DNA from: Pseudomonadota bacterium
Lineage (GTDB): Bacteria > Campylobacterota > Campylobacteria > Campylobacterales > Campylobacteraceae
Assembly: GCA_002746565.1 (NCBI GenBank)
Contig: PDPI01000023.1
Coordinates: 16,037-80,036, forward strand
Reading direction: 5' to 3'
Length of the DNA: 64,000 nucleotides
In this document: piece after piece, positions 1,964 to 39,437 of the stretch
How the letters are laid out: every line of letters begins with the position of its first letter
Numbering within the stretch: position 1 is the first letter of the stretch
Notes under the pieces: generated by a model
Databases searched by the model: none
Seen by the model: only the letters and a program-made list of their open reading frames with translations
What the model was told of the DNA's origin: nothing
Program-made: the position numbers and the translations under genes

Positions 1964-2505
1964 TTAGTATAAAAGCTGATTTTTTACTTCCACATAGACA
2001 TCTTCTCCACATAAAACCTCAACTATAAACAAAGCAAACTCCATCGCCGTTGCAGGTCCTTGGGAAGTAATGATGTTTTCATATATGAGAACCCTATCTT
2101 CTTTGCTGTATCCATCAAGCCCTATCACATCTTCAAAGCTAGGATAGCATGTATAATACTTTTTCAAAACACCCGCTTTTGCCAAAGCTAAAGGGGCAGC
2201 ACAAATGGCAGCTATATATTTTTTCTTTTTATCAAATTTTTTAGTAGATCTAAAACCATCTCGCTTTTGGCTAAAATCTGGGCATTTGGAAGACCTCCTG
2301 GAAGAATTATCATATCAAATTCACTCTCTACGACATCTTTTAGTAAAATTTCAGCCTTTATTCTAATATCATGGGCACCTTTCACCTCTAAACTATCAAG
2401 CCCAGCTAAAACAACTTCTACTCCAGCTCGTCTTAAAATATCAACCAAACTAACAGTTTCTATCTCTTCAAAACCTTCACTTATGGGAATTAAAACTTTT
2501 TTCAT
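1964..2505 (-). pseudogene. DJ-1/PfpI (YajL/ThiJ-like) family gene split by a frameshift
   Basis: Two ORFs (2212-2505 and 1964-2185) together form one DJ-1 protein. The second frame stays open upstream and reads KKFDKKKKYIAAICAAPLALAKAG, which includes the nucleophile-elbow Cys. The junction is best explained by a +/-1 change in the T6 run at 2237-2242. Confidence 0.7.
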
Positions 2506-2570: not shown

Positions 2571-2687
2571 GGTACTGAATAAATAGAGATTTAGTCAGTA
2601 CCGAAAACGGATTACGAAAAACAGATAACTAGTAGGGTAGGCATTTTTTCAAAATGCTATTTATTTTTATGTTATTTAGTCGGTGCC
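2571..2687 (+). repeat. dispersed structured element, copy 1 (full length)
   Basis: Hairpin H1 GGTACTGAATAAAT-AGAG-ATTTAGTCAGTACC, 4 GAWWACN heptamers, H2 GGCATTTT-TTC-AAAATGCT, a T-rich tail and terminal GTCGGTGCC. Aligns with 6 other copies. Confidence 0.9.
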
Positions 2688-4046
2688 ATATGGGGTACTA
2701 ATTAAATCGTACACCAAAATAATATTTTCATCTTCTAACTCAAGCAAATCTTTCGTAAAACCGCTCTTGCTAAAAAGATAATACTTTTCAATGGGCAAAT
2801 CACTTTTTATAAATCTAGCCTTTTGTTTTAAGCTCTCTAAAATATCAAGTCCAACTTTTTTATTGCTATATTTACACTCGCCAACTATCAAAGAATTTTG
2901 AGTTATGCCTACTAGATCTATTTCATGGTCTTTATCCCACCATCGACCGCATTTTAGCACCTTAGAATTTTTCTTTACATATTCAATGGCTAGATTTTCA
3001 TACACAAAGGAGATATAGGAGCTAAAATTTTGTTTTATTATTTTAGTAACATAGTGTTTATTTTCCATCTCAAGCCATGTTTTGTAGGGCAAAACATAAC
3101 AAAACCAAAATCTAAAAAAATTATCCTTTATAAAATATAAACTTTTGCGGCTTTTTAGGGGATTTTTTTCGGTTATGGGAACATCCTTATAAACAAGATC
3201 AAGTTCAATTAGTTTATTGATATACGGGGATATGGCTTGAGTTGTTTTTTCAAGCCTACTTGCTATGTGGCTTAATTTGTGAGCACCACTGGCTATATTT
3301 TCTAGTATTGAAAAATACGTAATCTGCTCTGAAACTTCCCCTTGTAGGATAAATTGAGGCTCATTGTACAAAAAACTATTTACTTCAAGGATATTTTCCT
3401 CTATGCCTTTAAATATATCAGCTTTTTCTTTGAACATATTAAGATATTTTGGAACCCCATGGAGTACGCTGTAAAGCTCTATAAGTTCGATTTGGCTTTT
3501 GTTTGGAAAAAATTCATGTATATGTTCAAACTTTATAGCTTCGAGTTTTATGGAACTTGTTCGGCGTCCATATAGGGGCGAGTTATAAGATAGGGTTTGA
3601 TCATGCATCATGGATATAATAGACCCACAAAATATGAGGTGAATATTTTTATTTTCTAAAAATTCATCACATATGTATTGAAATTGGGATGGAATGGATG
3701 GATCTTGTTTGGCTAGATACTGAAATTCATCAATGGCTATAACTAGTTTTTTATCAAAACTTTTTGAACTAATATATCTAAAAAGTTGAGTAAAATTTTC
3801 AAACCTTATCTCTCTCAAGATTTCATCATCAAAATAATCAGCAAATATGCCCTGAAATCTCTTTAAAAGAATAGAGATATTTTCAAGACTTGCTAAAAAA
3901 TACAAAGATGGCTTATCTTTCATAAACTCTCTAAGAAGTGCAGTTTTACCAACCCTGCGCCTGCCATAAAGAATGGTAGATGTAAATTGATCTAAAGCAT
4001 ATTCGCTGTTTAAAATCCCCAATTCTTTTTGTCTATTTACAAACAA
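2676..4046 (-). CDS. AAA+ ATPase (archaeal-ATPase-like) with wHTH and a C-terminal DUF234/PD-(D/E)xK-like domain
   Basis: 456 aa. Walker A GRRRVGKT, Walker B LVIAIDEFQ, C-terminal HEIDLVG...VGECKYS. TTG start with AAGGAG 5 nt upstream. The last 3 codons and the stop lie inside repeat copy 1. Confidence 0.8.
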   Translation of the reverse strand: MFVNRQKELGILNSEYALDQFTSTILYGRRRVGKTALLREFMKDKPSLYFLASLENISILLKRFQGIFADYFDDEILREIRFENFTQLFRYISSKSFDKKLVIAIDEFQYLAKQDPSIPSQFQYICDEFLENKNIHLIFCGSIISMMHDQTLSYNSPLYGRRTSSIKLEAIKFEHIHEFFPNKSQIELIELYSVLHGVPKYLNMFKEKADIFKGIEENILEVNSFLYNEPQFILQGEVSEQITYFSILENIASGAHKLSHIASRLEKTTQAISPYINKLIELDLVYKDVPITEKNPLKSRKSLYFIKDNFFRFWFCYVLPYKTWLEMENKHYVTKIIKQNFSSYISFVYENLAIEYVKKNSKVLKCGRWWDKDHEIDLVGITQNSLIVGECKYSNKKVGLDILESLKQKARFIKSDLPIEKYYLFSKSGFTKDLLELEDENIILVYDLISTPYGTD

Positions 4047-4134: not shown

Positions 4135-4234
4135 GGCACTGACGAAATGGCATAAAAATAAATGGCATTTTGTAAAAATGCTTACTTTAACTAGCTATCT
4201 GTTTTCCGCTTTCCGTAATCCCTTTTCGGCACTG
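4135..4234 (-). repeat. dispersed structured element, copy 2 (short form lacking the 5' arm of H1)
   Basis: The reverse complement aligns from CAGTGCCGAAAAGGGATTACGG through GCATTTT-TAC-AAAATGC to GTCAGTGCC. Confidence 0.9.
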
Positions 4235-4258
4235 CTTTCTAAAAAATTAAGTTTTTTA

Positions 4259-4267
4259 TGATACAAT
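4259..4267 (+). promoter_or_regulatory. putative extended -10 promoter (TGaTACAAT) for the selenoprotein gene
   Basis: TG at 4259-4260 and TACAAT at 4262-4267, preceded by a T-rich stretch, about 28 nt upstream of the ATG at 4295. Confidence 0.4.
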
Positions 4268-4294
4268 CTTGCTTATTTTTAAAAAGGAGATTAC

Positions 4295-4522
4295 ATGAAG
4301 GTACTTATTACTTATTGTAATATGTGAAACTATTTGCCTCAAGCTTCCCGTGTGGAAGGAGAAATTAAGAGTGTATATAGTGATGCGGAAGTTTCGTTTG
4401 AGTTAGGAACTCGTGGGGATTTTATCGTTGAAATTGATGGGAAGGTTATCTTTTCAAAAAATGATGAGGATAAGCAAAGATTTCCATTTGAGAACGAAAT
4501 ACTAGAGCTTATGAAAAAATAA
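4295..4522 (+). CDS. SelW/Rdx-family selenoprotein with an in-frame UGA (Sec) at 4325-4327
   Basis: ATG at 4295 with AAGGAG at 4284-4289. Translation is MKVLITYCNM-U-NYLPQASRVEGE...GDFIVEIDGKVIFSK...RFPFENEILELMKK. The TGA sits at the second redox position of a CxxU motif, in frame with the track ORF 4334-4522. Confidence 0.8.
4338..4361 (+). promoter_or_regulatory. candidate bacterial SECIS hairpin
   Basis: CTC-(aag bulge)-CTTCC-[CGTGT loop]-GGAAG-GAG. The hairpin starts 10 nt after the UGA, and the apical loop, with G in its second position, begins 22 nt after the last nucleotide of the UGA. Confidence 0.6.
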
Positions 4523-4529
4523 AGCTTTC

Positions 4530-4566
4530 AAAAAGTGTTGCAAAAAGCGCAACACTTTTTTATTTT
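4530..4566. terminator. bidirectional intrinsic terminator between convergent genes
   Basis: AAAAAGTGTTGC-(aaaaagc)-GCAACACTTTTT followed by TTATTTTTT. There is a T-run after the stem on both strands. Confidence 0.7.
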
Positions 4567-5310
4567 TTAGTGGGATAAAATCTGATCTAAGAAAACTTGC
4601 AATCTTTCGGATTCTGGGTTTTCAAAAAATGCTTCTGGGGTGTTTTCTTCTACTATTTGCCCAGCATCCATAAAAATAATCCTATCGGCAACCTTTTTGG
4701 CAAAACCCATCTCATGGGTAACACAAATCATAGTTTTTCCACTTTTTGCAAGCTCAACCATAACATCTAAAACCTCACTTACCATTTCTGGATCAAGTGC
4801 GGAAGTTGGCTCATCAAAAAGCATTATCTTTGGATGCTTACAAAGGCTTCTTGCTATGGCAACACGTTGTTGTTGTCCGCCTGAGAGTTGATTTGGATAT
4901 TTGTTAGCTTGTTCAGCTATATTTACACGCTCTAGATATTCTAAGGCGGTTTTTTCTGCCTCTTTTCTTGGGGTTTTTTTAACCCAAATTGGCGAAAGGG
5001 TAAGGTTATCAAGTATGGTTAAATGGGGGAAAAGATTAAAATGCTGAAAAACCATGGCAACTTCTTCCCTTATGGCTTTTATTTTTTTGATATCATCATC
5101 AAGTTCAATGCCATCCACATTTATACTTCCCTCTTGAAATTCTTCAAGGCGGTTTATGCATCTAATAAGGGTTGATTTACCCGAACCAGATGGTCCGCAA
5201 ACAACGATAATCTCACCTTTTTTAACGTCCAGATCCACATCTTTTAAAACATGAAAATCCCCATACCATTTATTTAATTTTTTTATACTTATAATAGTTT
5301 CTTGTTCCAT
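4567..5310 (-). CDS. aapP: polar amino-acid ABC transporter, ATP-binding protein
   Basis: 247 aa. Walker [10 protein letters not shown], signature LSGGQQQR, Walker [12 protein letters not shown]. Confidence 0.9.
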
Positions 5311-12985: not shown

Positions 12986-14653
12986 TTATTTAAGTTGGTC
13001 TTTTATGATGTCCCCAAGGGTCATTTTTTCTTCTTTGTTGATCTCTTCGAGAACTTTTCTGTCTTTTATCTTTGACATTTTTTTAACAGATAGTCTAATT
13101 CTACTCTTTTTATCGTCGATGAAAAGTATGGCTGATTCGATCTCATCTCCCACACTTAACTCTTCCACATCAACTTGACCTAGATCTTCTACTCTTATAA
13201 GGGCATCAACATTTTTATCAAGTTCCACAAAAACACCAAAATCTTTTATATCCCTTATCTTTCCAACTACTATATCACCATTTTTGTGAGATAGGGCATA
13301 AACTTGTATAGGGCTTTGTTCTAAAACCTTCTTGCTGAGTGAGAGTTTTTCATTTTCTGGATCTAGTTTAATAATCTTAACCTCAATCTCATCTCCAACT
13401 TTTAAAAAATCTTTACACTTATCTTCTCTGTTCCAAGAGGCATCCTCGTTGTGCAAAAGACCCTCAACAGAATCTATACGAACAAAGGCACCAAATTTGG
13501 TAACGGTAGTTATTTTTCCCTTTACAACATCGCCTGCTTTATATTTGGATGAAAACTCTTCAAATGGTTTGGGTAAAAGTTGCTTTAAAGAAACCCTCAA
13601 ACGTCTTGCATCTAGATCCAATTCTATAACTTCAACATTTAAAACTTGATTTTCTTCTATGAGTTCCCTTGGATGATTAATGCTTTTATCCCAAGAAATT
13701 TCACTTATATGTAAAAATCCCTCTATATCATTTCCCAGATCAACAAAGGCACCATAGGGTTCTATATTGCTAACAGTTACCTCTATGGCATCTCCCACAT
13801 CTAGGGCGTCTTTGATTTCTTTCCATGGGTCTGGCATTGCTGCTTTGATAGAAAGGGAAAGATGTCTTTTCTCATTGTCATATTTGATAGCTTTAACGGG
13901 AACTAGATCACCTTCTTTATAAAGAGTGCCTGGATTTACAGGACCTTTATAGCTTATCTCGCTATAATGAACCAATCCATCAACTCCACCGATATCAACA
14001 AACATGCCATAAGTTGTTATCTTTTTTACAACACCCTCAACCACTTCGTCGCGATCTAATAATTCACGGATAATTTCGCGACGCTTTTTACGTTCTTCAT
14101 CGAGAATCTTCTTTCTTGAAACTAAGACCGATTGATTTTCTTTATCAACTTTGATGACAGAAACTTTTATATTTTTACCTATAAGGGAGTTCACATCTCT
14201 AACCGCAGCTTGGCTTCTGGGCATGAAAAACTCTATTCCATCGCTGTTTTCAACTATAAATCCGCCTCTATTTTTACCAACAACTTTCACATCGATGAGT
14301 TTTTCCTCATCATCAAATTCATCGATAAATTTCTTGATTTTTTCTTTGCGAATCGCCTTTTTATAAGAAACATTTGGACGTTCATTGTGATAACCGGTTA
14401 TTAAAACCTTGATAGTATCACCTTTGTTGTAGATAAGATTTCCATCTGCATCTTTGATCTCAGAAAGATACAGCCTTCCTTCGGATTTTTTACCCACATC
14501 GATCAAAGCAGCATCATCTTTAATCTCCACTATAACGCCCTCAACTAGCGCATCTTTTTCAGTCTCTTTAAAAGACTCCTCCAACATTGTAGCAAAATCC
14601 ATCTCTTCTTCGTTTGCTAACTCATTTTGAACATTTTTGTTCACCTCAGCCAT
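12986..14653 (-). CDS. rpsA: 30S ribosomal protein S1
   Basis: 555 aa with six S1 domains (repeated G.V..I..fGaFV patterns). Confidence 0.95.
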   Translation of the reverse strand: MAEVNKNVQNELANEEEMDFATMLEESFKETEKDALVEGVIVEIKDDAALIDVGKKSEGRLYLSEIKDADGNLIYNKGDTIKVLITGYHNERPNVSYKKAIRKEKIKKFIDEFDDEEKLIDVKVVGKNRGGFIVENSDGIEFFMPRSQAAVRDVNSLIGKNIKVSVIKVDKENQSVLVSRKKILDEERKKRREIIRELLDRDEVVEGVVKKITTYGMFVDIGGVDGLVHYSEISYKGPVNPGTLYKEGDLVPVKAIKYDNEKRHLSLSIKAAMPDPWKEIKDALDVGDAIEVTVSNIEPYGAFVDLGNDIEGFLHISEISWDKSINHPRELIEENQVLNVEVIELDLDARRLRVSLKQLLPKPFEEFSSKYKAGDVVKGKITTVTKFGAFVRIDSVEGLLHNEDASWNREDKCKDFLKVGDEIEVKIIKLDPENEKLSLSKKVLEQSPIQVYALSHKNGDIVVGKIRDIKDFGVFVELDKNVDALIRVEDLGQVDVEELSVGDEIESAILFIDDKKSRIRLSVKKMSKIKDRKVLEEINKEEKMTLGDIIKDQLK

Positions 14654-23741: not shown

Positions 23742-24506
23742 TCACAGGGGCAAATTTACAAATTCATAATCTTTAAGATCACAAAAAAGTAAGTCTTGAA
23801 AATTAAAATTTTTATTTAACAATAAGTTTATACAAAAGGATGCTTGAAGTGAGGCACAATTTGAAGCAGTAAATGCTAAATTTCCGTATATCTCTTCGGC
23901 TCCTTTTTTATTTGTTTTATAAAGATTTTTTGTTTTTGCGGAAGTGCTAACTTGTAAAACTGAGCCCCCAATGGCTCCGTGAACGAATTTTTTAAAATGT
24001 TTTTCACACCACAAAGCAAGTAGCTTTTTTGTTTTTACATCATCCACGCAGTCAACTACAACATGAGCTTTTTTGAGTAATTTATCTATATTTTTTTCAT
24101 CTAAATACTTTGGTTTTTTGTGAATTTTTAATGCTGGATTTATAAGTAAGAGGTTTTCTTTTAAAACATCTACTTTTTTTACATGTAAAGTATTTAAATT
24201 TGAAAAATTTTGTCGATTTAAATTGTGTTCACAAAAGCTATCCCTATCTATTAGAGTAAGCTTTCCAACTCCAATTCTAGCCAACAACTCCGCCACATTT
24301 CCCCCAAGTCCACCGCATCCAACTATGCAGACATGGGCTTTAAAAAGCCTAAATTGCTCATGTTGGGATATGGTATTTTGATTTCTTTTAAAACGCAAAG
24401 GGGTAAGCCCTTTTTTGAAGACCTTTCTTTCGATTTGCCTAAAAGAGAGCTTAGTTTTTTTTAGTTTTTTTTGATAATATTTCAATGAAACAAATCTTTG
24501 CCCCAT
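23742..24506 (-). CDS. ThiF/MoeB/HesA-family adenylyltransferase (E1-like)
   Basis: 254 aa with the nucleotide loop IVGCGGLGGNVAELLARIGVG and NLNRQ. Its ATG overlaps the upstream stop (ATGA). Confidence 0.8.
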   Translation of the reverse strand: MGQRFVSLKYYQKKLKKTKLSFRQIERKVFKKGLTPLRFKRNQNTISQHEQFRLFKAHVCIVGCGGLGGNVAELLARIGVGKLTLIDRDSFCEHNLNRQNFSNLNTLHVKKVDVLKENLLLINPALKIHKKPKYLDEKNIDKLLKKAHVVVDCVDDVKTKKLLALWCEKHFKKFVHGAIGGSVLQVSTSAKTKNLYKTNKKGAEEIYGNLAFTASNCASLQASFCINLLLNKNFNFQDLLFCDLKDYEFVNLPL

Positions 24507-24736
24507 CAGCCACCGCCAACCTTTGGAAATAGGCTTAAAATATCCCCATCTTGAAGCTCAGTTTGCTCATCTGCATGGCGAGAATTTATCATCAAAACCC
24601 CCAAGGGCAGTTTGTGATTTGCAATACCATACATATCCATCACATCAACTGCCTTTGTTCCTTTTTCTAACTCCAATTCCTTAATCTTAAAAAGATTTTC
24701 GCGATATTGGGCAAAAAGTTTCAGGGTTATTTTCAT
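24506..24736 (-). CDS. MoaD/ThiS-family sulfur-carrier protein (C-terminal GG)
   Basis: 76 aa starting MKITLKLFAQ and ending FPKVGGG. The ATG at 24734-24736 overlaps the AOR stop (ATGA); the track start at 24748 is a less likely alternative. Confidence 0.75.
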   Translation of the reverse strand: MKITLKLFAQYRENLFKIKELELEKGTKAVDVMDMYGIANHKLPLGVLMINSRHADEQTELQDGDILSLFPKVGGG

Positions 24737-26508
24737 GCAAAATTCCAAAACTCATCAATTTCCTTGTTTGTAAAATCCCAAGTTACATTGTGGGGCGGTA
24801 AGGTTTCGTATTTCATAAATTCAGGCATTCTATCATCGGCACTTGTAAATCCAGCTCTTTTATTAAAATCTCTTTCAATTTTTAATATGTTTTTGCCAAG
24901 ATTTGTAACATCATCCCCTGTTAAATTTACACCAAATCTAGCATTTATCATATCAATCAAAGCTGGTAAACATTTTGGATCATCAAGGGCAGGAAAGGCA
25001 ACAAAAATACACATGCCCGTACTATCAACTGCTGCTGATGCTATCTGGAGATTTCTTGAGAGCTCCACTTGTCCATCTTTTTTGAGTGGATCCACATAGC
25101 CACCGCTATTTAGGATATTTGTTGCAACTGCATATCCTGCTGTGTGATCAGCTCCCATGGGAGTGGTAACATAGGTAACACCCTGGCCCTTAACAGCCCT
25201 TGGCTCATAGGCAGGAATGGCTTGATTTTTAACCACTGGCACACGAACTAAACCATAAAGTTTACCTAGATTTCCAGTTCCCCCACCTATGATGCGCCCA
25301 AGAGGAGTACCATTTGCAAGTTCTTCTTTTATGAGTCTGTAAGCCTCTTTTCCATCTCCGTATTTTAAAATACCAGCATCAACAGCTAAACCTAAAGTAA
25401 CACTAGTCTCTATGGTATCAAGTCCTAAATCATCCATAAGAGCGTCTAGTTTTGCTATCAAGTCCAAATCTTTTATGCCTAAATTTGCCCCCATTGCCCA
25501 AATACTTTCATATTCAAAGCCAGAGGTAAGGTATTTTCCTTTTTTGTCATTGTAAACTTGAGAGCATTGTATAACACATCCAGCATGGCATCCGTGAGTT
25601 GTCTTGCCCCCTCTATCTTTAATGTTTTCAGCCATGGTTTCACCGCAAATCTCCTCTGCAAACTCAAAATTTCCTTCCCTAAAATTTCTAGTTGGCAAAC
25701 CGCCAGCTTCGTTGATGATGTTTACCAAAACATTGGTTCCAAAAGCAGGTAATCCCTCGCCACTGATTGGATTTTCTTTTAAGGCTTTAGTGAAGATTTT
25801 ATTTGCTTCTTTAAATTTTTGTGGATCATGCAAGGTCGCTTCTTTATACTTTTCACTATCGATAGTAATACATTTTATCTTTTTTGAACCCATAACGGCT
25901 CCTAAGCCACCACGCCCATGACTTCTTAGCTTGCCTTGTGGGTCTTTTACGGAAACATTAGAGGTTAACATCCTCATCTCCCCAGGTCTTCCTATGCTCA
26001 TAACAGCTACTTTTTTATTGTATTTTTCAAGCATGGAATCTAGTACAAAATAATTATCCTTTCCAACTAACTCGGGACAGGGTGTAAATTCGACCTTATC
26101 TTTTGTTACATGCAAATGGTAAAAATCATCGCCCTCAGGAATATTTTCGATTATCAAAGCTTTAACTCCAAGTTTAGCCATAATTCCAGCACTGGTTCCG
26201 CCTACATTACTTTCTTTAATGCCTCCTGTTAGGGGGCTTTTTGCTCCCAAAGAATTTCTACCAGAATTTGAAGCTGCGGTTCCAGAAAGAAGCCCTGGGC
26301 AAAAAACCATTTTGTTATTTGGTCCTAGTGAATGACACTCTGGGTCAACCTCTTTTGCAACTATGGTAGAAGTTAAACCTCTGCCACCAAGCCCCATCCA
26401 CTCCGTTGGAACATCTTCGATCTTGTAAGTTAGATTTTTCATATCTACTCTGTATATTTTATCTGCCATGGGCAATCCTTTTATTTTGTGATTTAATCCA
26501 TTATACAT
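24733..26508 (-). CDS. aldehyde:ferredoxin oxidoreductase (tungstopterin AOR family)
   Basis: 591 aa with AOR N-terminal and alpha-helical domain patterns (GGRGLTS, GLGAVMGSKK, Cys cluster HGCHAGCVIQC). Confidence 0.85.
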   Translation of the reverse strand: MYNGLNHKIKGLPMADKIYRVDMKNLTYKIEDVPTEWMGLGGRGLTSTIVAKEVDPECHSLGPNNKMVFCPGLLSGTAASNSGRNSLGAKSPLTGGIKESNVGGTSAGIMAKLGVKALIIENIPEGDDFYHLHVTKDKVEFTPCPELVGKDNYFVLDSMLEKYNKKVAVMSIGRPGEMRMLTSNVSVKDPQGKLRSHGRGGLGAVMGSKKIKCITIDSEKYKEATLHDPQKFKEANKIFTKALKENPISGEGLPAFGTNVLVNIINEAGGLPTRNFREGNFEFAEEICGETMAENIKDRGGKTTHGCHAGCVIQCSQVYNDKKGKYLTSGFEYESIWAMGANLGIKDLDLIAKLDALMDDLGLDTIETSVTLGLAVDAGILKYGDGKEAYRLIKEELANGTPLGRIIGGGTGNLGKLYGLVRVPVVKNQAIPAYEPRAVKGQGVTYVTTPMGADHTAGYAVATNILNSGGYVDPLKKDGQVELSRNLQIASAAVDSTGMCIFVAFPALDDPKCLPALIDMINARFGVNLTGDDVTNLGKNILKIERDFNKRAGFTSADDRMPEFMKYETLPPHNVTWDFTNKEIDEFWNFA

Positions 26509-29056: not shown

Positions 29057-30640
29057 CTATATTTTAGGACCAGCAGCCGAATAATCAAACTCATCATTTG
29101 CGCTTATGTATTTGTTAAAATTTTCAACAAACATACCTGCTAATTTTTTAGCCATCTCATCGTAAGCATTCTTGTCTTCCCATGTGTTTCTAGGGTTTAG
29201 AACCTTAGTTTCTACGCACTCAAGGGAAGTTGGGATTTCAAGATCAAAAAGAGGAATTTTTTCAAAACTTGCCTTTTGGATGCTTCCATCTAGTATGGCA
29301 TTGATGCATGAGCGTGTGGCTTTGATACTCATTCTTTTACCTCTTCCATAAACTCCCCCTGTCCAACCTGTGTTTACTAAATACACATGAACTCCATGTT
29401 TATCTATCTTTTCGCCTAAAAGTTTGGCATAAAGGGTTGGGTGAAGTGGTAAAAATGCCTCTCCAAAACAAGCTGAAAAAGTTGCCACTGGCTTGGTTAT
29501 ACCCCTTTCAGTTCCAGCAACTTTTGCTGTGTAACCACTTAGAAAATAATACATCGCCTGCTCTTTAGTAAGCTTAGAAACTGGAGGCAAAACTCCAAAG
29601 GCATCGGCTGTTAGGAAGATGATATTGCTTGGATGTCCTGCTTGAAGGCTTGGCTCATGGTTTTGTATATGATAGATTGGGTAGCTTACCCTTGTATTTT
29701 CGGTTTTGCTTCCATCATCATAATCCACCACACCCTTTTCATCATAGACCACATTTTCCAAAAGGGCATCTCGTTTGATGGCTCCGTATATTTCAGGCTC
29801 ATTTTCAGCACTTAGTTTTATGCACTTTGCATAACATCCGCCCTCAAAATTAAATACACCCTCATCATCCCAGCCATGCTCATCATCGCCTATTAATTTT
29901 CTATGTGGATCGGTTGAAAGGGTTGTTTTTCCTGTTCCTGAGAGACCAAAAAATAGTGCTGTATCGCCTTTTTTACCCACATTTGCCGAACAATGCATGG
30001 AAAGTTTTCCCTCAAGTGGTAACCAATAATTCATCATGGAAAAAATTCCCTTTTTCATCTCTCCGCCATACCAAGTTCCGCCAATGACTGCTATATTTTC
30101 TTCCACATTAAAAACCACAAAAACATCCGAATGTAAACCCTGCTTTTGCCAATCCTCATTTACACATTTGCAAGCATTAAAAACGGTAAATTCTGGACTA
30201 AAACCATCTAGATCTTTTTTTTCTGGGCGGATAAACATATTTTTTACAAAATGGGCTTGCCAGGCAACTTGGGTTATAAATCTAACCTTTTTTCTACTTG
30301 CCAAAGAGCCACCACAATAGGCATCTTGGACGTAAAGATCTGTATTTGAGAGCTGTTTTTTTACCTTAGCAAATAAATCATCAAAAATTTTCTCATCTAT
30401 GGGAAAATTGGTATCTCCCCAAGCTATATATTTATTTGATGGGCTTTGATTTACAAAATACTTATCCTTTGGGCTTCTTCCTGTAAAAATCCCAGTATCA
30501 ACCATAAAGGTTCCATTGCTTGAGATTGCACCCTCGCCGTTTTTTACCTCATGTTTGAAAAGTTCATCATAGCTAAGATTGTAAAAAATCTCGCCAATTC
30601 CTTTTAAACCTAGATTTTGTAATGTTTGTTTAAGTGACAT
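29057..30640 (-). CDS. pckA: phosphoenolpyruvate carboxykinase (ATP)
   Basis: 527 aa with the kinase-1a loop [11 protein letters not shown]. Confidence 0.95.
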
Positions 30641-30658
30641 TTTATCTTCCTAAACCTT

Positions 30659-31969
30659 TTATTTGAAAATAGACAAAAGCACACCAGCTGCAACCGCTGA
30701 GCCGATAACCCCTGCCACATTTGGACCCATAGCATGCATTAAAAGCATATTTGTTGGGTCTTCTTTCATGCCTTCTTTATTAGAAACACGAGCCGCCATC
30801 GGAACCGCACTTACTCCTGCTGAGCCTATTAGTGGGTTTATCTTATCTTTGCTTAAAATATTCATAAGTTTTGCCATCAAAATTCCAGCTGCAGTTCCAA
30901 TGGAAAAGGCTATCAAACCAAGGGCTAAGATGCCTAAAGTCTGAGGAACCAAAAACTTTTCAGCTGCAAGTTTTGAGCCAACTGCGAGACCTAGAAAAAT
31001 CGTAACTATATTTATAAGTGAATTTTGCAAAGTATCGCTTAATCTCGCAACAACCCCACTTTCTTTGACCAAGTTTCCAAAGGCTAGAGCACCTATAAGA
31101 GGGGTTGCATCTGGTAAAGCTAAAAGACAAAGAACTAAAATGGTTATGGGAAATAATATCTTTTCAAGTTTTGATACTTGACGAAGCTGAACCATCTTGA
31201 TTTTTCTCTCTTCTTTTGAAGTTAGTGCTCTCATGATAGGTGGTTGGATGATGGGAACTAATGCCATGTAAGAATACGCCGCCACCGCGATGGCCCCAAG
31301 CAAGTCAGGGGCAAGGCGTGAGGCTATAAATATGGCTGTGGGTCCATCTGCACCGCCTATAATTCCAATAGCCGCTGCATCTTGAAGGGAAAAACTAAAA
31401 ATATCCGTGTATTGGCTAAGAGCTAGGGCTCCAACTAGGGTTGCGAAAATTCCAAACTGGGCTGCTCCTCCTAAAAGGGCGGTTTTTGGATTTGCCAAAA
31501 GTGGTCCAAAATCCGTCATGGCTCCCACACCCATGAAAATGATAAGGGGAAATAATCCATTGGCAATTCCAGCATTATAAACAATGCCTAAAAACCCATT
31601 TGGTCCTGCAATTTCAGCTATTGGGATGTTTGCTAACAATCCCCCAAAGCCTATGGGAATGAGTAAAAGTGGCTCAAAACCCTTAGCAATAGCTAGATAA
31701 AAAAGCAAAAATGCCACAAATATCATGATAACTCTACCCCAACTTTGGGTAAATACACTCAATTCATGTCCTTGGGAATCTTTGAGATTTTCCTTTGGAC
31801 TTATAAAGGCATTTAATCCTGTGGTTTTATAAAAACTTCCAAAAAGCTCTCCTAAAGATTTGCTATGATATTCCTTTTGAACCTCAGGGGCCGAGGGTGC
31901 ATGAGTCGAAGCATTTAGGCTTAGGGTGCTAAAAAATAATAAAAATAAAATTACTACAATTTTTCTCAT
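30659..31969 (-). CDS. oadB: Na+-translocating oxaloacetate decarboxylase, beta subunit
   Basis: 436 aa polytopic protein with OadB-family sequence. Directly follows oadA, sharing 1 nt. Confidence 0.85.
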
Positions 31970-33768
31970 TATAAACTTACCAATAATTGCTCATTTTCAA
32001 CCACATCGCCCACATTTACATGTAAGGCAGAAACCACTCCATCAGCAGGGGCTACAACTTCTATTTCCATTTTCATAGCTTCCAATATAACTATAACTTC
32101 CCCATTTTTAACCGCTTGACCCTCTTTAACTAGGATTTTAAATACACTTCCTGGCAAAGTTGATTTTACCTCAACTCCACTACTTTTAGATGCAGATGGG
32201 GCAGGAGCTGAAGGGGCATTTGATGGTGTTAGGGACTTAATTTCTACATTTTCACCCTCAGCTACTTGCACATTATAGCTTTGTCCATTTACTACAACGG
32301 TGTAAGAACCTGAACTTGAAGCCTTAGCGGGAATTTTTGGTGCTTCTTTTTTGACTGATTTATCTATCTTTCTAACATTTACCCTTGCTTCACCCTTTAG
32401 GAAAGCTACACCCTTTTCCTTACAAGCTGCTACTATGAAAAGGTTTTCATCATTTACTTCTATTTTCTCATCTTCAAGGATTTTTTGGGTATAGGCAAGG
32501 GATTTTGTCTCATCCTTATCGGCAATATCTATGGCATTTTCTTTTGTCGGTTCTAGATCTAATTGTTTTGAGGCTAATTCAACTACCTCACTATTTGGTT
32601 CAACGGGAGTTTTACCAAAATATCCTAGGACCATCTTTCCATATCCATCGGCGATTTTTTTCCATTTTCCAAACATAACGTTGTTAAAAGCTTGCTGGAA
32701 ATAAAACTGACTAACAGGGGTTACACTAGTTCCATATCCGCCCTTTTCAACCACTTCCCTCATGGCATTAATCACTTCTGGGAATTTATCTAGGATATTA
32801 TTGTCCCTCATCATTTGGGTATTTGCCGTCAAAGCTCCACCAGGCATTGGAGAAAATGGGATAAGTGGGCTAACCTGCGTCGCTTCTGGGGGCATAAAAT
32901 AATCTTTTAATTGATCTTTTAGCACTTCTTCGTATTTTAAAACTTTTTCTACCTCAAGTCCACCTAGATCATACCCCTTGCCTTTTACAGCATGGAGCAT
33001 GGTTAAAATATCAGGCTGACTCGTTCCCCCGCTTACTGGAGATGCGGCTAGATCTATACCATCAACTCCTGCTTCAAGGGCGGCTAGATAACATGCTATA
33101 CTAACCCCTGCGGTCTCATGGGTATGAAGTCTTAGGTGGGTATTTTCTGGCACTAGTTTTCTTGCCATCTTGATAGTCTCATAAACCTTTTGGGGATTGC
33201 TCGTGCCACTTGCATCCTTAAAACAGATACTATCGTAAGGAATACCACTATCTAGTATCTCGCGAAGAGTTTTTTCATAAAAAGCCACATCATGTGCCCC
33301 TTTACACTTTGGAGGTAAATCCATTAAGGTCACTACCACTTCATGCTTTAAGCCGTGGTGATCTATTCTTTCGCCACTATATTTTAGATTTTCCACATCA
33401 TTTAGGGCGTCGAAATTTCTAATGGTTGTGGTTCCGTGTTTTTTAAACATTTTTGCATGCAGATCTACAAGTTCTCTGCTTCCTGTATCTAGCATAACAG
33501 TATTTACTCCACGGGAAAGAGTTTGCAAATTTGCATCTTTGCCGACAACCTTCCTAAACTCATCCATCATGTCAAAGGCATTTTCATTTAAATAAAAAAA
33601 TAAACTCTGAAACCTAGCTCCTCCACCAAATTCAAAGTGGGTAACGCCAGCTTGTGAAGCTGCCTCCACTGCGGGCATGAAATCTTTTATTAAAACCCTA
33701 CCACCAAATACGGACTGAAACCCATCCCTAAATGTTGTATCCATTATATCTATAAATTTTTTTGCCAT
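31969..33768 (-). CDS. oadA: oxaloacetate decarboxylase alpha subunit (carboxyltransferase plus biotinyl domain)
   Basis: 599 aa with an N-terminal TIM carboxyltransferase ([10 protein letters not shown]) and the C-terminal biotinylation motif EAMKME. Confidence 0.9.
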
Positions 33769-34043
33769 TATCGTCCTTTATTTTGATTTTTAAATTGTGT
33801 GATTGCAGCTGATATAACAGCAACTAGGGCTGTGTCATCTTGTGTGTTTTGAGTGCTTGAGTTTGGAACTTGCACTAGGGGTTTAGTAAAAAACTTTGCT
33901 ATGATGGATGATTGTATTTTTAATACTATAACCATAAGAATTAAAAATAAAAACACCGTTACCATGCCCAAAGCCATAAATTTCAAACCCTCGCTAACTA
34001 GGTTCATCTCCATAGCATTATGCCTTTTTTGCTTTTTGCCCAT
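33768..34043 (-). CDS. oadG: oxaloacetate decarboxylase gamma subunit
   Basis: Small single-TM protein immediately upstream of oadA. An internal Met (MEMNLV) may be the true start. Confidence 0.7.
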   Translation of the reverse strand: MGKKQKRHNAMEMNLVSEGLKFMALGMVTVFLFLILMVIVLKIQSSIIAKFFTKPLVQVPNSSTQNTQDDTALVAVISAAITQFKNQNKGR

Positions 34044-34168: not shown

Positions 34169-37000
34169 TTATTTTTTTGCTTTGGTGCATCTATCGACCA
34201 AATACATTATATTTCTATAAGCTAATCCACTATGTTCGCTTAGTCCGATCTCACATGTTTTACTCGTAGAAAATGCCAGTTTAACACCCTTTGGAATTTC
34301 TTCTTTTAAATGGCGGAGAGCGGATGAATTTAATTCTGGAAAAGTAAAGCCCCTATCTCCTGCAAATCCGCAACAACTTACTTTTTTAGGAATGATGACT
34401 TTATGGGAGCATTTATTTGCTAATTCTTCTAAAAAATGGGCTGAGCCTGAAGTTTGGGTGCTGCATGTTTTGTGGATAAGAATTGGCTCATCCACCTTTG
34501 TAAAACTTAGATCATCAAGTAAAAATCTCATAACAAATTCATCGGCTCCGTAGATTTTAAGCTTTGCATCTAGGTGGCTTTTCATGGTTTTTGTACAGGG
34601 AGACATATCGCAGATGATGGGATATTTTCCATTGTTTGTGGCTATTCTTAGGGCATTTTGAAGTTCTTTGTTTTTCACATCTCCTTCTTCTTTGTATCCT
34701 TTAGAATAAAAGGGCATTCCACAGCACAGATCTTGCGAATATTTTGGCACAATTAGCTCATACCCAGCCTTGTTTAGTATGCTTTTAACCACTTCATGGA
34801 TGGTTTTTTCATCTCTTTTTGGCTTTGGATTTCCAAAAGTTTGATTGATACACGAAGAAAAGTAAACCACTTTTTTATGGCTCTTATAGGGTTTAAGATC
34901 TTGCTTTAGGGGCTTTTGTCCACTTGGCAAACTTGCATTCCATAATGGAATATGATTTTTACTAAGTTTGTGTATTTTCTTGGCAACCGATTTTGAAAAA
35001 TCCACATTTAAGTGGCTTAATACATGTAAACCTTTTAGGGCGTATCTTGCCACATTTAAAAGTCCTCCATAATGGGATGAGGCAAAAGAGGCAAGGTTTT
35101 TATTGAAACTTGTTGCCTCAATGGAGCGTAAATATTTTGTCATATCTCCCATATTTATACCAACAGGACAGCGGGTAAAACAAAGCGAACAAGTAGCACA
35201 GGTTTCTAGTCCATCATAAGTATATTTGGCTTTAAGATCTTTAAATTTTGCTACATCTTTAGTTTTTAATTGGCTTAATTTTCTATTTGCAACTATGCGT
35301 TGACGGGGTGTCAGGCTTAGCATATTAGACGGACAAACACTCTCGCAAAAACCGCACTCTATGCACATATCCACAAGCTTGTTTGTTTTTGGTAAAATTT
35401 TCAGATTTTGCAAATGGGCTTTTGGGTCTTTATTTATGATAACTCCCGGATTTAGAAGATTATGTGGATCAAAAATATTTTTAATCTCTTTCATAATCTC
35501 ATAGGCTTCCTCGCCCCATTCTAAGGATACAAAAGGAGCCATATTTCTCCCCGTTCCATGCTCAGCTTTTAGGCTTCCTTTGTAATGAGACGCCACATGC
35601 AAAGATAGCTCTTGCATGAAATTATCGTATTGTTCTTTTTGTTTTCGGGTTTCAAAGGTTTGGGTAAAAACAAAATGCACATTGCTATCTAGGGCGTGTC
35701 CGAAGATTATGCTATCTTCATACCCATGTTTTTTCATTATCTTTTTTAGGTCTAATATTCCCCTAGCAAAATCTTCCATAGGATACGCCACATCCTCTAT
35801 GATAACCGTTGTTCCAACCTCCCTAACCCCTCCAACTGCTGGAAAGAGGCCCTTTCTTATGTTCCAAAAAGTGGTATATTCTTGCACATTTGTCGTAAAA
35901 CTAGCGGGAATTTCCATATCCCAATTTTTTAAAATATCCAAAATAACATCTATATTTTCTTTTAAAATTTTAGGATTTTTTGCCCTTGTTTCTATCAAAA
36001 GAGCTGTGGCGTCTTTGCTTAGGGTTTTTAGGTATGGGGGCATTCCTTCTTTATTTTCAACGCTTTTTAATGACCTTCTATCCATAAGTTCAGCCGCATC
36101 TACCCTATCTTTGCAGGTAAGTTTTAATTTCGCAACCGCTTCACAGGCATCTTTTATATTTTTAAAAATGATTAAACCACTTGCCTTATCCTTATAATCA
36201 GGTATAGTTTTTAATGTAACCTCTTCTATAAATCCCAAAGTTCCCTCACTCCCAACCATTAGATGTTTGATAATCTCATACACATCTTCATAATCAACCA
36301 AGGAATTTAAACCATAGCCACAGGTATTTTTTATCTGAAATTTTTTGATAATTTTTGCTTTTAACTCTTTATTTTCGCTAAGTTTTTTGGCAAGGGAGGA
36401 AATGTTTGCTAAAAGGTCTTTATGGGTTTTTTCAAACTCTTTTTTACTTTGCTCACTACTGGTATCAAGCCTTGAGCCATCACTAAAAATAAGCTTAATA
36501 TCTTTGATAGTTTTATAGGAATTATCCTCAGTCCCACAACACATTCCACTTGCATTATTTGCCACTATACCACCTATCATAGCACTATTTATGGACGCTG
36601 GATCTGGTCCTATCTTTTTTTGAAATTTGCCAAGTGAAGTGTTTGCATCTAAACCTATTACCGATGGGGCAAGGCTTACAAAATTTTTATCTTTAGAAAT
36701 ACTTATGTTATCCCAATCCCTTGAAGTTACAACCAAAATAGAATCGCTTATAGCTTGCCCAGAAAGGCTAGTTCCTGCTGCACGGAAAACCATTGGTAAG
36801 GCTAGATCTGAGGCAGTTTTGATGATATTTGCAACCTCATCTGCATTATTTGCCCAAATGACAATCTTTGGCACAAGCCTATAAAATGAAGCATCAGTTC
36901 CGTAAGCTAGGGTTCTTAAACTATCTGTAAAAATTCTAGATCTATCAATACTTTGGCTAATAAGATGGTAAAATTTAAGGTAATTTCCATGGAGTAACAT
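34169..37000 (-). CDS. FAD-linked oxidase fused to 4Fe-4S and CCG cysteine-rich domains (D-lactate/2-hydroxyacid dehydrogenase-like)
   Basis: 943 aa with an N-terminal FAD-binding PCMH domain, CIECGFCESVCP and CATCSLCFTRCP ferredoxin motifs, and C-terminal CCG motifs (LCCGMP, VSCCGFAG). Confidence 0.8.
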   Translation of the reverse strand: MLLHGNYLKFYHLISQSIDRSRIFTDSLRTLAYGTDASFYRLVPKIVIWANNADEVANIIKTASDLALPMVFRAAGTSLSGQAISDSILVVTSRDWDNISISKDKNFVSLAPSVIGLDANTSLGKFQKKIGPDPASINSAMIGGIVANNASGMCCGTEDNSYKTIKDIKLIFSDGSRLDTSSEQSKKEFEKTHKDLLANISSLAKKLSENKELKAKIIKKFQIKNTCGYGLNSLVDYEDVYEIIKHLMVGSEGTLGFIEEVTLKTIPDYKDKASGLIIFKNIKDACEAVAKLKLTCKDRVDAAELMDRRSLKSVENKEGMPPYLKTLSKDATALLIETRAKNPKILKENIDVILDILKNWDMEIPASFTTNVQEYTTFWNIRKGLFPAVGGVREVGTTVIIEDVAYPMEDFARGILDLKKIMKKHGYEDSIIFGHALDSNVHFVFTQTFETRKQKEQYDNFMQELSLHVASHYKGSLKAEHGTGRNMAPFVSLEWGEEAYEIMKEIKNIFDPHNLLNPGVIINKDPKAHLQNLKILPKTNKLVDMCIECGFCESVCPSNMLSLTPRQRIVANRKLSQLKTKDVAKFKDLKAKYTYDGLETCATCSLCFTRCPVGINMGDMTKYLRSIEATSFNKNLASFASSHYGGLLNVARYALKGLHVLSHLNVDFSKSVAKKIHKLSKNHIPLWNASLPSGQKPLKQDLKPYKSHKKVVYFSSCINQTFGNPKPKRDEKTIHEVVKSILNKAGYELIVPKYSQDLCCGMPFYSKGYKEEGDVKNKELQNALRIATNNGKYPIICDMSPCTKTMKSHLDAKLKIYGADEFVMRFLLDDLSFTKVDEPILIHKTCSTQTSGSAHFLEELANKCSHKVIIPKKVSCCGFAGDRGFTFPELNSSALRHLKEEIPKGVKLAFSTSKTCEIGLSEHSGLAYRNIMYLVDRCTKAKK

Positions 37001-37075
37001 AGTTTATCCTTTTTGGAGGCTGTTTTGTGGATTTTACTATTTTATTATTGATAATATGTTGAAATGATAATAAAT

Positions 37076-38422: not shown

Positions 38423-38964
38423 TAAGCAAGTGCCTTTTTGTCTATTCTTTGGTTAAGATTTGAATCACAACCTCGATATAGATTTATATTTTTTATGATA
38501 AACCCAACAGAATAAAAAACCAAAAACCAAAAAGAAAGGGGTATCATGCCCTTAACTATCCACCAATACGCAAGACCACCTGGGTCGGCGCTGCCTTCGT
38601 TGCTGTTAAAAGATTCTAAAGCATAAGGGGTGGAATTTATAGCAATTAGCAAGGAAATGGGAAGCAAAAAGATAAGAGTTCCAAAAATATTTATAATAGC
38701 CTTTTTCTTGTGATCTAGTTTATCGTAAACTATATCCACTCTCACATGAGCATCTTGACTTAGGGTGTAAACTAACCCAAAAAGCATAACCACTGAAAAA
38801 AAGTGCCATTCCATTTCTTGCAACGCTAAAGAGCCAGTTTTGAAAAAATATCTTAAAATAACATCCAAAAACACATTTAACATCATCAAAAAAGTTGCAA
38901 ATGCACATATGTAGCCTATAAATTTAGCAAATTTATCAAAAATCTTTTCTAATTTTAACAACAT
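38422..38964 (-). CDS. dctQ: TRAP transporter small permease
   Basis: 180 aa with 4 TM helices, directly upstream of dctM. Confidence 0.8.
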   Translation of the reverse strand: MLLKLEKIFDKFAKFIGYICAFATFLMMLNVFLDVILRYFFKTGSLALQEMEWHFFSVVMLFGLVYTLSQDAHVRVDIVYDKLDHKKKAIINIFGTLIFLLPISLLIAINSTPYALESFNSNEGSADPGGLAYWWIVKGMIPLSFWFLVFYSVGFIIKNINLYRGCDSNLNQRIDKKALA

Positions 38965-38974
38965 AACAAATCAT

Positions 38975-39238: not shown

Positions 39239-39270
39239 TTATACTCAGTTTACTTTAAGGTTTGCTTACG

Positions 39271-39408: not shown

Positions 39409-39437
39409 ATAAAGAGGACCTTTGTAAGCGTTCTAGA

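What the first reader, a model, noticed from the sequence alone, without database searches (positions are those of the whole stretch)
4295..4522. Selenoprotein truncated by the ORF track: SelW/Rdx-like protein with UGA-encoded Sec in a CxxU motif and a SECIS-like hairpin
Seen: an ATG at 4295, with AAGGAG 5 nt upstream, opens a frame reading MKVLITYCNM-TGA-NYLPQASRVEGEIKSVYSDAEVSFELGTRGDFIVEIDGKVIFSKNDEDKQRFPFENEILELMKK. This frame is continuous with the track ORF, which had to start at an internal TTG at 4334. The TGA (4325-4327) falls at the second position of C-x-x-(C/U). A hairpin CTC-aag-CTTCC-CGTGT-GGAAG-GAG (4338-4361) follows, and its apical loop begins 22 nt after the last nucleotide of the UGA with G in the second position. 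Known: Rdx/SelW-family proteins have an N-terminal beta-strand followed by CxxC/CxxU, and a later G..G.F.V..dG..i.SK...FP pattern. Bacterial Sec insertion needs a stem-loop shortly 3' of the UGA plus selA/B/C/D. Inference: this is a genuine 75-aa selenoprotein that standard ORF calling misses.
Basis: partly seen in the sequence, partly recalled or inferred. Interest (0 to 1): 0.7.

Follow-up and report, generated by a model that had tools for sequence, protein, structure and literature searches.

The report
Mis-annotated SelW-like selenoprotein gene
This is a real but ordinary small selenoprotein gene of the well-known SelW-like family, in which an in-frame UGA is read as selenocysteine, so standard gene callers cut off its first 13 residues, including the active site.

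Summary
Window 4295-4522 (+) encodes a 75-codon frame with AAGGAG 5 nt upstream, one in-frame TGA (4325-4327) in a C-x-x-U motif, and a terminator right after the stop.

With U written as C, the protein passes Pfam Rdx (E 9e-17, full length) and the NCBIfam equivalog NF041051, 'SelT/SelW/SelH family (seleno)protein' (98.1 bits, cut-off 88).

All 80 related metagenome loci (39-79% identity) carry TGA at this codon. Codons 2-10 vary mostly synonymously. The TTG used by the ORF track is a start codon only in the window and its three closest relatives.

A 5-bp hairpin (4344-4348/4354-4358) with a 5-nt loop and a conserved G is predicted independently from 36 unique sequences. It is 97% paired, and 4 of its 5 pairs covary.

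TGA is a normal stop in this window (12 of 57 large ORFs), so recoding is site-specific.

Sec machinery could not be checked.

The family, its SECIS and its frequent mis-annotation are published, and C. jejuni SelW is validated by Ribo-seq and MS. This is a new member of a known kind, of low interest.

The parts
4259..4267 (+). Probable extended -10 promoter element (TGaTACAAT), 27 nt upstream of the ATG
   Evidence: Read directly from the sequence. TG-n-TATAAT-like elements sit at the same distance upstream of the start in relatives L002-L004, and GGaTATAAT in L005. The sigma-70 consensus scan found no + strand site because there is no -35 hexamer. Lack of a -35 is usual for Campylobacterota (own knowledge). 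This part is inferred, not tested.
4284..4289 (+). Shine-Dalgarno sequence AAGGAG, 5 nt before the ATG
   Evidence: An AGGA/GGAG-type motif precedes the aligned ATG in most of the 63 unique homolog upstream regions.
4295..4522 (+). selW-like (Rdx family) selenoprotein gene: 75 codons including Sec11, plus the TAA stop
   Evidence: Translation. Pfam PF10262 E 9e-17 over the full length. NCBIfam NF041051 98.1 bits against a cut-off of 88, and TIGR02174 47.1 against 34.2. dN/dS 0.06-0.16 against the nearest relatives. The AlphaFold model of a 79%-identical homolog has pLDDT 92 and TM 0.80-0.85 to the solved bacterial SelW-related proteins.
4316..4327 (+). Redox motif Cys8-Asn-Met-Sec11 (CxxU). 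The Sec codon is TGA at 4325-4327
   Evidence: TGA is at this codon in 80 of 80 related loci. It aligns with the second Cys of CxxC in PDB homologs. In the model it lies in the loop between strand 1 (residues 2-7) and helix 1 (residues 14-27).
4344..4358 (+). SECIS hairpin: 5-bp stem CUUCC/GGAAG, 5-nt apical loop CGUGU (4349-4353), conserved G at 4350
   Evidence: RNAalifold on 36 unique sequences predicts exactly this helix. It is 97.2% paired, 4 of 5 pairs show double (compensatory) changes, and the covariation score is 0.656 against 0.161 in shuffles (0 of 500) and 0.09-0.19 when the partner is slid. G at alignment column 26 is conserved in at least 90% of sequences.
4530..4570 (+). Intrinsic terminator: 12-bp stem, 7-nt loop and a T run, 8 nt after the stop. 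It probably serves both convergent genes
   Evidence: 1 site found against 0.2 expected. Equivalent GTGTTGC...GCAACAC hairpins follow the stop in L002-L004.

Best explanation
Window 4295-4522 is a monocistronic gene for a 75-residue SelW-like (Rdx / SelT-SelW-SelH family) selenoprotein in a Campylobacterales MAG. The UGA at codon 11 is not a stop. When the ribosome reaches it, SelB-GTP carrying Sec-tRNA(Sec) is recruited by the small SECIS hairpin 17-31 nt downstream (5-bp stem, 5-nt loop with a conserved G), and selenocysteine is inserted. This completes a Cys8-x-x-Sec11 redox motif in the loop between strand 1 and helix 1 of a thioredoxin-like fold. The protein most likely acts as a thiol/selenol oxidoreductase through a reversible selenenylsulfide. 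Its substrate is unknown, as it is for the whole family.

The 62-aa product in the ORF track, and in the public record (CR967_03815, 'hypothetical protein'), is an annotation artefact. It starts at a Leu codon that happens to be TTG.

Shown here: the reading frame, family membership, conservation of the TGA, purifying selection on both sides of the TGA, the covarying hairpin, and the fold of a close homolog. Inferred from established knowledge of bacterial Sec decoding: SelB/tRNA(Sec) recruitment, actual Se incorporation in this organism, and the redox chemistry.
For: 1. The frame, SD, TGA and stop are as described.
2. Family membership holds. PF10262 gives E 9e-17 covering profile positions 1-73 of 74 only if the N-terminus is included. 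NF041051 (SelTWH_Campy, an equivalog named '(seleno)protein') gives 98.1 bits against a cut-off of 88.
3. TGA sits at the same codon in 80 of 80 metagenome loci at 39-79% identity. The loci were selected with peptide patterns that do not include that codon. Database homologs P0001, P0003 and P0005 show 'W' there because their TGA was called with code 4.
4. The upstream 10 codons are translated. Ile/Thr/Tyr/Cys codons vary at third positions. For codons 2-10, dN is 0.05-0.15 and dS 0.52-0.57 against L006, L007 and L009. For the whole gene, dN/dS is 0.06-0.16 at dS of about 1-2.
5. Codon 14 is a possible start (TTG) only in the window and L006-L008. Elsewhere it is CTN, CGC, AGA, AAA and so on.
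6. The SECIS hairpin is supported by covariation. It matches the published epsilon-proteobacterial SECIS: a 5/6-bp hairpin a few nt after the TGA, pairs 1-5 covarying, and an invariant loop G (PMC4607533).
7. TGA is an ordinary stop here. It ends 12 of 57 large ORFs, and no other read-through ORF exists.
8. The fold fits. The P0001 model has pLDDT 92.4 with topology b-a-b-b-b-a. Its best PDB matches are 2OBK, 2OKA, 3DEX, 2OJL, 2FA8 and 2P0G (TM 0.80-0.85), and mouse SelW 2NPB (TM 0.75).
9. There is precedent. C. jejuni SelW is translated past the UGA, as shown by Ribo-seq and MS (PMC11955535). SelW genes are often missing from epsilon-proteobacterial annotations (PMC4607533).
Against: - No selA, selB, selD or tRNA-Sec lies in the 64-kb window. 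The Sec-decoding trait of this particular genome is therefore unverified.
- The hairpin alone is not thermodynamically unusual (z = 0.02).
- No Rfam family matches it.
- bSECISearch could not be run.
- The structure model is of a 79%-identical homolog with Trp in place of Sec, not of the window protein itself.
- No biochemical function is known for any bacterial SelW-like protein.
Confidence: 0.9

Rival explanations
1. Relic gene. The gene descends from a selenoprotein gene, but this lineage has lost the Sec machinery. The UGA now terminates translation and the locus is non-functional, or yields only a 10-residue peptide.
For: No sel genes or tRNA-Sec were found in the window. Gain and loss of the Sec trait is documented within the epsilon-proteobacteria, for example in H. 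pylori (PMC4607533). The neighbouring DJ-1/PfpI gene is frameshifted in this MAG, so some local decay or assembly error exists.
Against: The ORF is intact on both sides of the TGA, with dN/dS 0.06-0.16 at dS of about 1 or more. The SD, -10 element, SECIS and terminator are all preserved. The SECIS stem is identical to that of relatives, while nearby synonymous sites differ. A 64-kb sample of a roughly 2-Mb genome is not expected to contain the sel genes.
Confidence: 0.05
2. The annotated reading is right. UGA is a true stop, and an N-terminally truncated 62-aa Rdx-like protein starts at TTG 4334. The short upstream ORF would be a leader peptide.
For: The public record and the mechanical ORF list both call it this way. 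The truncated product still scores on PF10262 (E 3.8e-9).
Against: There is no SD before 4334. TTG at that codon is present only in the window and 3 closest relatives, and 76 of 80 loci have no start codon there. The truncated protein lacks strand 1 and the CxxU motif that define the family. Codons 2-10 are under purifying selection.
Confidence: 0.03
3. UGA is reassigned genome-wide (code 4 Trp or code 25 Gly), or the TGA is a sequencing error for TGT/TGC.
For: Gene callers translated the homologs with W at this position. 57 of 94 cluster representatives show W.
Against: TGA terminates 12 of 57 large ORFs, and the window is densely coding under code 11 with no other in-frame TGA genes. The same TGA is seen in 80 independent assemblies from many samples, which excludes a sequencing error. 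The aligned residue in true non-Sec homologs is Cys, not Trp or Gly.
Confidence: 0.01

Closest known systems
Campylobacter-type SelT/SelW/SelH family selenoprotein (NCBIfam NF041051, SelTWH_Campy). C. jejuni SelW is encoded on the 'sRNA' CJnc60
   Same: Both are about 75-81 aa with an N-terminal CxxU encoded by UGA, a small SECIS hairpin just downstream, and a stand-alone small transcript that annotation frequently misses. The window protein scores above the equivalog cut-off. C. jejuni SelW is translated at full length according to Ribo-seq and MS (PMC11955535).
   Different: The host is an uncultured Campylobacterales MAG whose RpsA is closest to Sulfurospirillaceae at only 73-74% identity. 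No direct sequence comparison with C. jejuni SelW was possible here. There are no expression data for this gene.
Bacterial SelW-like selenoproteins of marine metagenomes and genomes (Zhang & Gladyshev 2005, 2006)
   Same: Both have the CXXU motif and the Rdx fold, and the Sec forms greatly outnumber the Cys forms. SelW-like was the most abundant selenoprotein family in the Sargasso Sea, with 48 Sec against 7 Cys (PMC1088965). The family has few or no Cys homologs in Sec-containing organisms (PMC1794560). Here 80 of 80 loci are Sec forms.
   Different: Nothing substantive. This is one more lineage.
Solved Rdx-family CxxC proteins: 2OBK and 2OKA (Pseudomonas), 3DEX (Streptomyces SAV_2001), 2FA8 (Agrobacterium Atu0228), 2OJL, 2P0G, human MIEN1 2LJK, mouse SelW 2NPB
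   Same: They share the b-a-b-b-b-a thioredoxin-like fold (TM 0.75-0.85, rmsd 1.4-2.4 A). The redox motif is in the same loop, and the second Cys aligns with the U.
   Different: The bacterial solved structures are Cys forms of about 100 aa at 16-31% identity. The window protein is shorter (75 aa) and uses Sec.
Epsilon-proteobacterial minimal SECIS (Cravedi et al. 2015) and the E. coli fdhF minimal SECIS
   Same: Each is a 5/6-bp apical hairpin a few nt 3' of the UGA, with an invariant G in the loop and covariation in pairs 1-5 (PMC4607533). Here the stem is 5 bp, 4 of 5 pairs covary, and the loop G is conserved in at least 90% of sequences.
   Different: There are 16 nt between the UGA and the stem, against 11 nt for the E. 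coli minimal element (own recollection, not checked here). No bulged U is evident. SelB binding was not tested.

Membership tests
Rdx / SelT-SelW-SelH family (Pfam PF10262; TIGR02174; NF041051) | Profile-HMM score above the curated cut-off over the full domain | tested here: met
   PF10262 61.5 bits against 22.6, residues 2-74 to profile positions 1-73 of 74. TIGR02174 47.1 against 34.2. NF041051 98.1 against 88.
Rdx / SelT-SelW-SelH family (Pfam PF10262; TIGR02174; NF041051) | CxxC/CxxU redox motif immediately after the N-terminal beta strand, with the U position occupied by Cys or Sec in homologs | tested here: met
   C8-N-M-U11. It aligns with CEPC of 2LJK and CTQC of 3DEX. TGA is present in 80 of 80 loci. 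Among the 94 cluster representatives, 10 have Cys, 57 have 'W' and about 24 are N-terminally truncated calls. 'W' was checked against DNA, and found to be TGA called with code 4, only for three earlier hits (P0001, P0003, P0005). The motif lies between E2-7 and H14-27 in the model.
Rdx / SelT-SelW-SelH family (Pfam PF10262; TIGR02174; NF041051) | Thioredoxin-like b1-a1-b2-b3-b4-a2 fold | tested here: met
   The AlphaFold model of P0001 (79% identical to the window protein) has pLDDT 92.4 and pTM 0.82. Foldseek's top 23 PDB hits are all SelW-related/Rdx proteins, with TM 0.72-0.85. This was tested on a close homolog, not on the window sequence itself.
Bacterial selenoprotein gene (SelB/SECIS-dependent UGA recoding) | In-frame UGA conserved among orthologs, with coding constraint on both sides | tested here: met
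Bacterial selenoprotein gene (SelB/SECIS-dependent UGA recoding) | SECIS stem-loop shortly 3' of the UGA with a G in a small apical loop | tested here: met
   The hairpin is at 4344-4358. Its loop starts 22 nt after the UGA, and the G at 4350 is conserved in at least 90% of sequences. The stem is 97% paired and 4 of 5 pairs covary. bSECISearch itself was not run.
Bacterial selenoprotein gene (SelB/SECIS-dependent UGA recoding) | selA, selB, selC (tRNA-Sec) and selD present in the same genome | not testable with these tools
   None is in the 64-kb window.
Bacterial selenoprotein gene (SelB/SECIS-dependent UGA recoding) | Selenium actually incorporated at the UGA position | not testable with these tools
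   This needs 75Se labelling or MS. It has been done for the C. jejuni homolog only (PMC11955535).

The most novel reading that the evidence does not exclude
In Campylobacterota-type relatives, selW sits divergently next to a DJ-1/PfpI-family gene (17 fetched loci) and close to efp. The most novel reading not excluded is that SelW is a dedicated selenol reductase partner of the DJ-1/PfpI-type protein, for example by repairing its reactive Cys. That would give the first functional handle on bacterial SelW. In this MAG the DJ-1 gene is frameshifted and a DUF234 ATPase gene is inserted between the two, while selW stays intact. This argues, if anything, against an obligate partnership.
Probability: 0.1. 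Interest if true: 0.4.

Novelty: new member of a known kind. Interest (0 to 1): 0.15.

Why it matters
The practical value is annotation repair. The public record of this MAG lists a 62-aa 'hypothetical protein' (CR967_03815). The real product is a 75-aa selenoprotein whose active site lies in the part that was cut off.

The gene also marks this uncultured Campylobacterales lineage as a probable selenium user.

The search also showed how systematically this family is mangled in large protein collections. Of 94 cluster representatives, 57 carry an apparent Trp at the Sec position and about 24 are N-terminally truncated. In the three homologs checked against DNA, the Trp was a TGA called with code 4.

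None of this changes current understanding. SelW-like selenoproteins, their SECIS and their mis-annotation in epsilon-proteobacteria are already published.

Tried and rejected
The rest of the MAG could therefore not be searched for sel genes.
- The look-up of encoding contigs for P0002 and for the two proteins nearest the window ends found no record. The contig could not be extended beyond the window.
- ARAGORN found no tRNA-Sec in the window or in 54 related loci.
- Rfam gave nothing at gathering threshold on the window, and nothing credible at permissive threshold on 4200-4600.
- The single-sequence fold of the SECIS region is not distinguishable from shuffles. I therefore dropped thermodynamic stability as an argument and relied on covariation.
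- Extending the core helix by two pairs (columns 18-19 with 35-36) holds only in the GC-rich homologs and not in the window.
- Genome-wide UGA reassignment and sequencing error were considered and rejected.
- The split molybdopterin oxidoreductase in L002 was considered as a possible Sec-containing formate dehydrogenase. Its two ORFs overlap, so they lie in different frames. That fits a frameshift better than an in-frame UGA, and I did not pursue it.

Full report
**Observation.**
- AAGGAG lies at 4284-4289, followed by a 5-nt spacer and ATG at 4295.
- The frame reads MKVLITYCNM, then TGA at 4325-4327, then NYLPQASRVEGEIK...ELMKK, and stops at TAA 4520-4522.
- The mechanical ORF list can only start the gene at TTG 4334, giving 62 aa.
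- A strong intrinsic terminator (12-bp stem plus a T run, 4530-4570) follows the stop.
- A TGnTACAAT extended -10 element lies at 4259-4267. Equivalent elements occur at the same distance in relatives. This promoter is inferred, not tested.
- The gene is a self-contained unit. It lies between a DUF234/ATPase_2 gene on the minus strand (2676-4046) and a convergent ABC-transporter ATPase gene (4567-5310; Pfam ABC_tran on the syntenic gene of L002).

**Is it more than chance?** Two results say yes.
- A scan of all six frames found this to be the only ORF outside the large genes that reaches >=60 aa by reading through exactly one TGA.
- TGA is otherwise an ordinary stop in this DNA. It ends 12 of the 57 large, densely packed ORFs. 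Genome-wide reassignment (code 4 or 25) is therefore excluded.

**What it is.** With the TGA written as Cys, the 75-aa product matches the SelW family by sequence and by fold.
- It matches Pfam Rdx (PF10262) at E 9e-17 over profile positions 1-73 of 74. The truncated ORF matches only from profile position 14.
- It passes two curated NCBIfam models: TIGR02174 (CXXU_selWTH) and the equivalog NF041051, 'SelTWH_Campy, SelT/SelW/SelH family (seleno)protein', at 98.1 bits against a cut-off of 88.
- Against the PDB by sequence it finds MIEN1 (2LJK), SAV_2001 (3DEX), 2OBK, 2OKA and 2FA8. The second Cys of their CxxC motif aligns with the U.
- An AlphaFold model of the 79%-identical homolog P0001 has pLDDT 92.4. 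Its topology is b1(2-7), a1(14-27), b2(32-37), b3(43-47), b4(50-54), a2(68-75), which places CxxU in the b1-a1 loop.
- That model superposes on all solved bacterial SelW-related proteins at TM 0.80-0.85, and on mouse SelW at TM 0.75.

**Comparative evidence for recoding.** The word-indexed protein search found only five relatives.
- Three are full-length with 'W' at the U position. Two are truncated at the same Leu codon, including the public annotation of this very gene (P0002, 'MAG: hypothetical protein CR967_03815').
- The DNA of the 'W' proteins carries TGA. They had been called with code 4 on short contigs.
- A metagenome scan used peptide patterns that do not include the U position, and it returned 80 loci at 39-79% identity. 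All 80 have TGA at that codon.
- The ten codons upstream are translated in this frame. Ile, Thr, Tyr and Cys are kept while third positions vary: ATT/ATC/ATA, ACT/ACA/ACC/ACG, TAT/TAC, TGT/TGC.
- For codons 2-10, dN is 0.05-0.15 against dS 0.52-0.57 in comparisons with L006, L007 and L009. For the whole gene, dN/dS is 0.06-0.16 at dS of about 1-2.
- The TTG used by the ORF track is a possible start only in the window and its three nearest relatives. Elsewhere that codon is CTN, CGC, AGA, AAA and so on.
- An exhaustive HMMER search of 1.84 billion cluster representatives with P0001 gave 94 hits. Of these, 57 have 'W' at the site, about 24 are N-terminally truncated and 10 are true CxxC forms. 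The U position therefore aligns with Cys in the non-Sec homologs. 'W' was checked against DNA only for P0001, P0003 and P0005, not for these 57.

**SECIS.** I took 54 nt starting at the TGA from the window and all homologs. That gave 36 unique sequences, which align without gaps.
- RNAalifold, given no prior structure, predicts a single 5-bp helix at columns 20-24/30-34. These are window positions 4344-4348/4354-4358, with a 5-nt loop.
- For that helix, 97.2% of cells are standard pairs, and 4 of 5 pairs show changes on both sides (C-G, G-C, U-A and A-U all occur).
- For the 7-pair version tested, the covariation score is 0.656. Shuffles give 0.161 (0 of 500 reach the observed value), and sliding the 3' partner by 1-3 columns gives 0.09-0.19.
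- The G at loop position 2 (window 4350) is conserved in at least 90% of sequences.
- This is the architecture published for epsilon-proteobacterial SECIS elements: a 5/6-bp hairpin a few nucleotides after the TGA, covariation in pairs 1-5, and an invariant loop G (PMC4607533).
- The hairpin in the single window sequence is not more stable than shuffles (z = 0.02).
- In GC-rich homologs the stem extends to 7-10 bp. In the window it does not.

**Host and context.** Four window proteins are exact matches to proteins PID47530, PID47533, PID47545 and PID47568 of a 95,315-bp contig of a MAG labelled 'Proteobacteria bacterium'.
- Its RpsA is closest to Sulfurospirillum and Sulfurospirillaceae sequences at 73-74% identity. 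An unnamed metagenome protein reaches 84%. The organism is therefore an uncultured Campylobacterales bacterium.
- The window contains ordinary housekeeping and anaerobic-metabolism genes.
- In Campylobacterota-type relatives, selW lies between a divergent DJ-1/PfpI gene and efp.

**What could not be shown.** The Sec machinery of this genome is unverified.
- No selA, selB, selD or tRNA-Sec lies in the window or near selW in 54 related loci.
- The trait is therefore inferred for this organism from four observations: the intact, constrained ORF; the preserved SECIS; the preserved expression signals; and the common occurrence of Sec decoding in epsilon-proteobacteria (PMC1794560).
- A relic gene in a lineage that recently lost the trait remains possible, at about 5%.

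**Mechanism.** The following steps are inferred from the established bacterial Sec pathway.
- SelD makes selenophosphate.
- SelA converts Ser-tRNA(Sec) to Sec-tRNA(Sec).
- SelB-GTP-Sec-tRNA(Sec) binds the apical loop of the hairpin at 4344-4358 and delivers Sec to the UGA at 4325-4327.
- The product's Cys8-x-x-Sec11 pair, at the start of helix 1 of a thioredoxin-like fold, is expected to cycle between selenol/thiol and selenenylsulfide states.
- The physiological substrate of bacterial SelW-like proteins is unknown.

**Comparison with what is known, and novelty.** Every element of this finding is already published.
- SelW-like proteins with CXXU were the most abundant selenoprotein family in the Sargasso Sea (48 Sec against 7 Cys forms, PMC1088965). 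They are among the families with few or no Cys homologs in Sec-using organisms (PMC1794560).
- Cravedi et al. [quoted passage not shown]
- C. jejuni SelW, previously listed as the sRNA CJnc60, is translated at full length according to Ribo-seq and proteomics (PMC11955535).
- NCBI already has an equivalog model for it.

The finding is therefore correct but ordinary. It is an unrecognised member of a known family in a new lineage, and a clean example of a known annotation failure.

**Scores.** Confidence is 0.9 that this is a genuine selW-like selenoprotein gene with a functional SECIS. Interest is 0.15.

Noticed in passing
window 1967-2505 (-): A DJ-1/PfpI-family gene, the usual divergent neighbour of selW in relatives, is split by a frameshift in an A-rich run near 2215-2240. 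Residues 1-89 are in one frame (2505-2239). Residues from about 90 to 179, including the 'AAICAAP' nucleophile-elbow region, are in another frame (down to 1970). It is either a pseudogene, or a homopolymer error in the MAG assembly.
   Followed up: partly
window 2676-4046 (-): A 456-aa ATPase_2 (PF01637) plus DUF234 protein lies between the DJ-1 remnant and selW. It is absent from this position in the syntenic relative L002/L007. Weak homologs (about 30% identity) lie 2-4 kb downstream of selW in another clade (L014, L018 and others). It may be an inserted gene.
   Followed up: partly
protein collections (P0129-P0222; P0001, P0003, P0005): Of the 94 cluster representatives related to this protein, 57 have 'W' at the Sec position and about 24 start just after it. 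For P0001, P0003 and P0005 the DNA shows TGA, so the W comes from gene calling with code 4 on short contigs. This looks like a systematic artefact affecting selenoproteins in large metagenomic protein sets. The other 'W' sequences were not checked against DNA.
   Followed up: partly
whole window (RpsA 12986-14653 and others): The public record labels the MAG only 'Proteobacteria/Pseudomonadota bacterium'. RpsA is closest to Sulfurospirillum and Sulfurospirillaceae at 73-74% identity, and no cluster mates exist at 90%. It is probably an undescribed genus of Campylobacterales.
   Followed up: partly
window 23742-26508 (-): A ThiF/MoeB-type adenylyltransferase gene lies next to an aldehyde:ferredoxin oxidoreductase (AFOR_N + AFOR_C, 591 aa). 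AFORs are typically tungstopterin enzymes, and this one is not commonly discussed for this group.
   Followed up: no
window 29057-34043 (-) and 34169-38964 (-): A cluster holds PEP carboxykinase plus the Na+-translocating oxaloacetate decarboxylase genes (oadB, oadA and a small 91-aa ORF). Next to it is a 943-aa fusion of a GlcD-like FAD oxidase with a GlpC/CCG-type Fe-S domain, followed by TRAP transporter genes.
   Followed up: no
L002 1-2133 (-): In the relative's contig, a TAT-signal molybdopterin oxidoreductase is called as two overlapping ORFs (577 aa and 372 aa). The overlap means the two are in different frames, so this looks like a frameshift or assembly error rather than an in-frame UGA. 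It is possibly napA.
   Followed up: no
L009 6001; L038; L084: There are small variants among selW homologs. L009 starts with TTG instead of ATG. L038 has a one-residue Gly insertion. L084 has Asp for the otherwise conserved Tyr after U-N (N-D-L-P).
   Followed up: no
window 38965-39437 and 42352-42854: Two stretches of about 0.5 kb have no ORF of at least 90 aa. The second includes tRNA-Leu(GAG) at 42401-42486. Neither was examined further.
   Followed up: no
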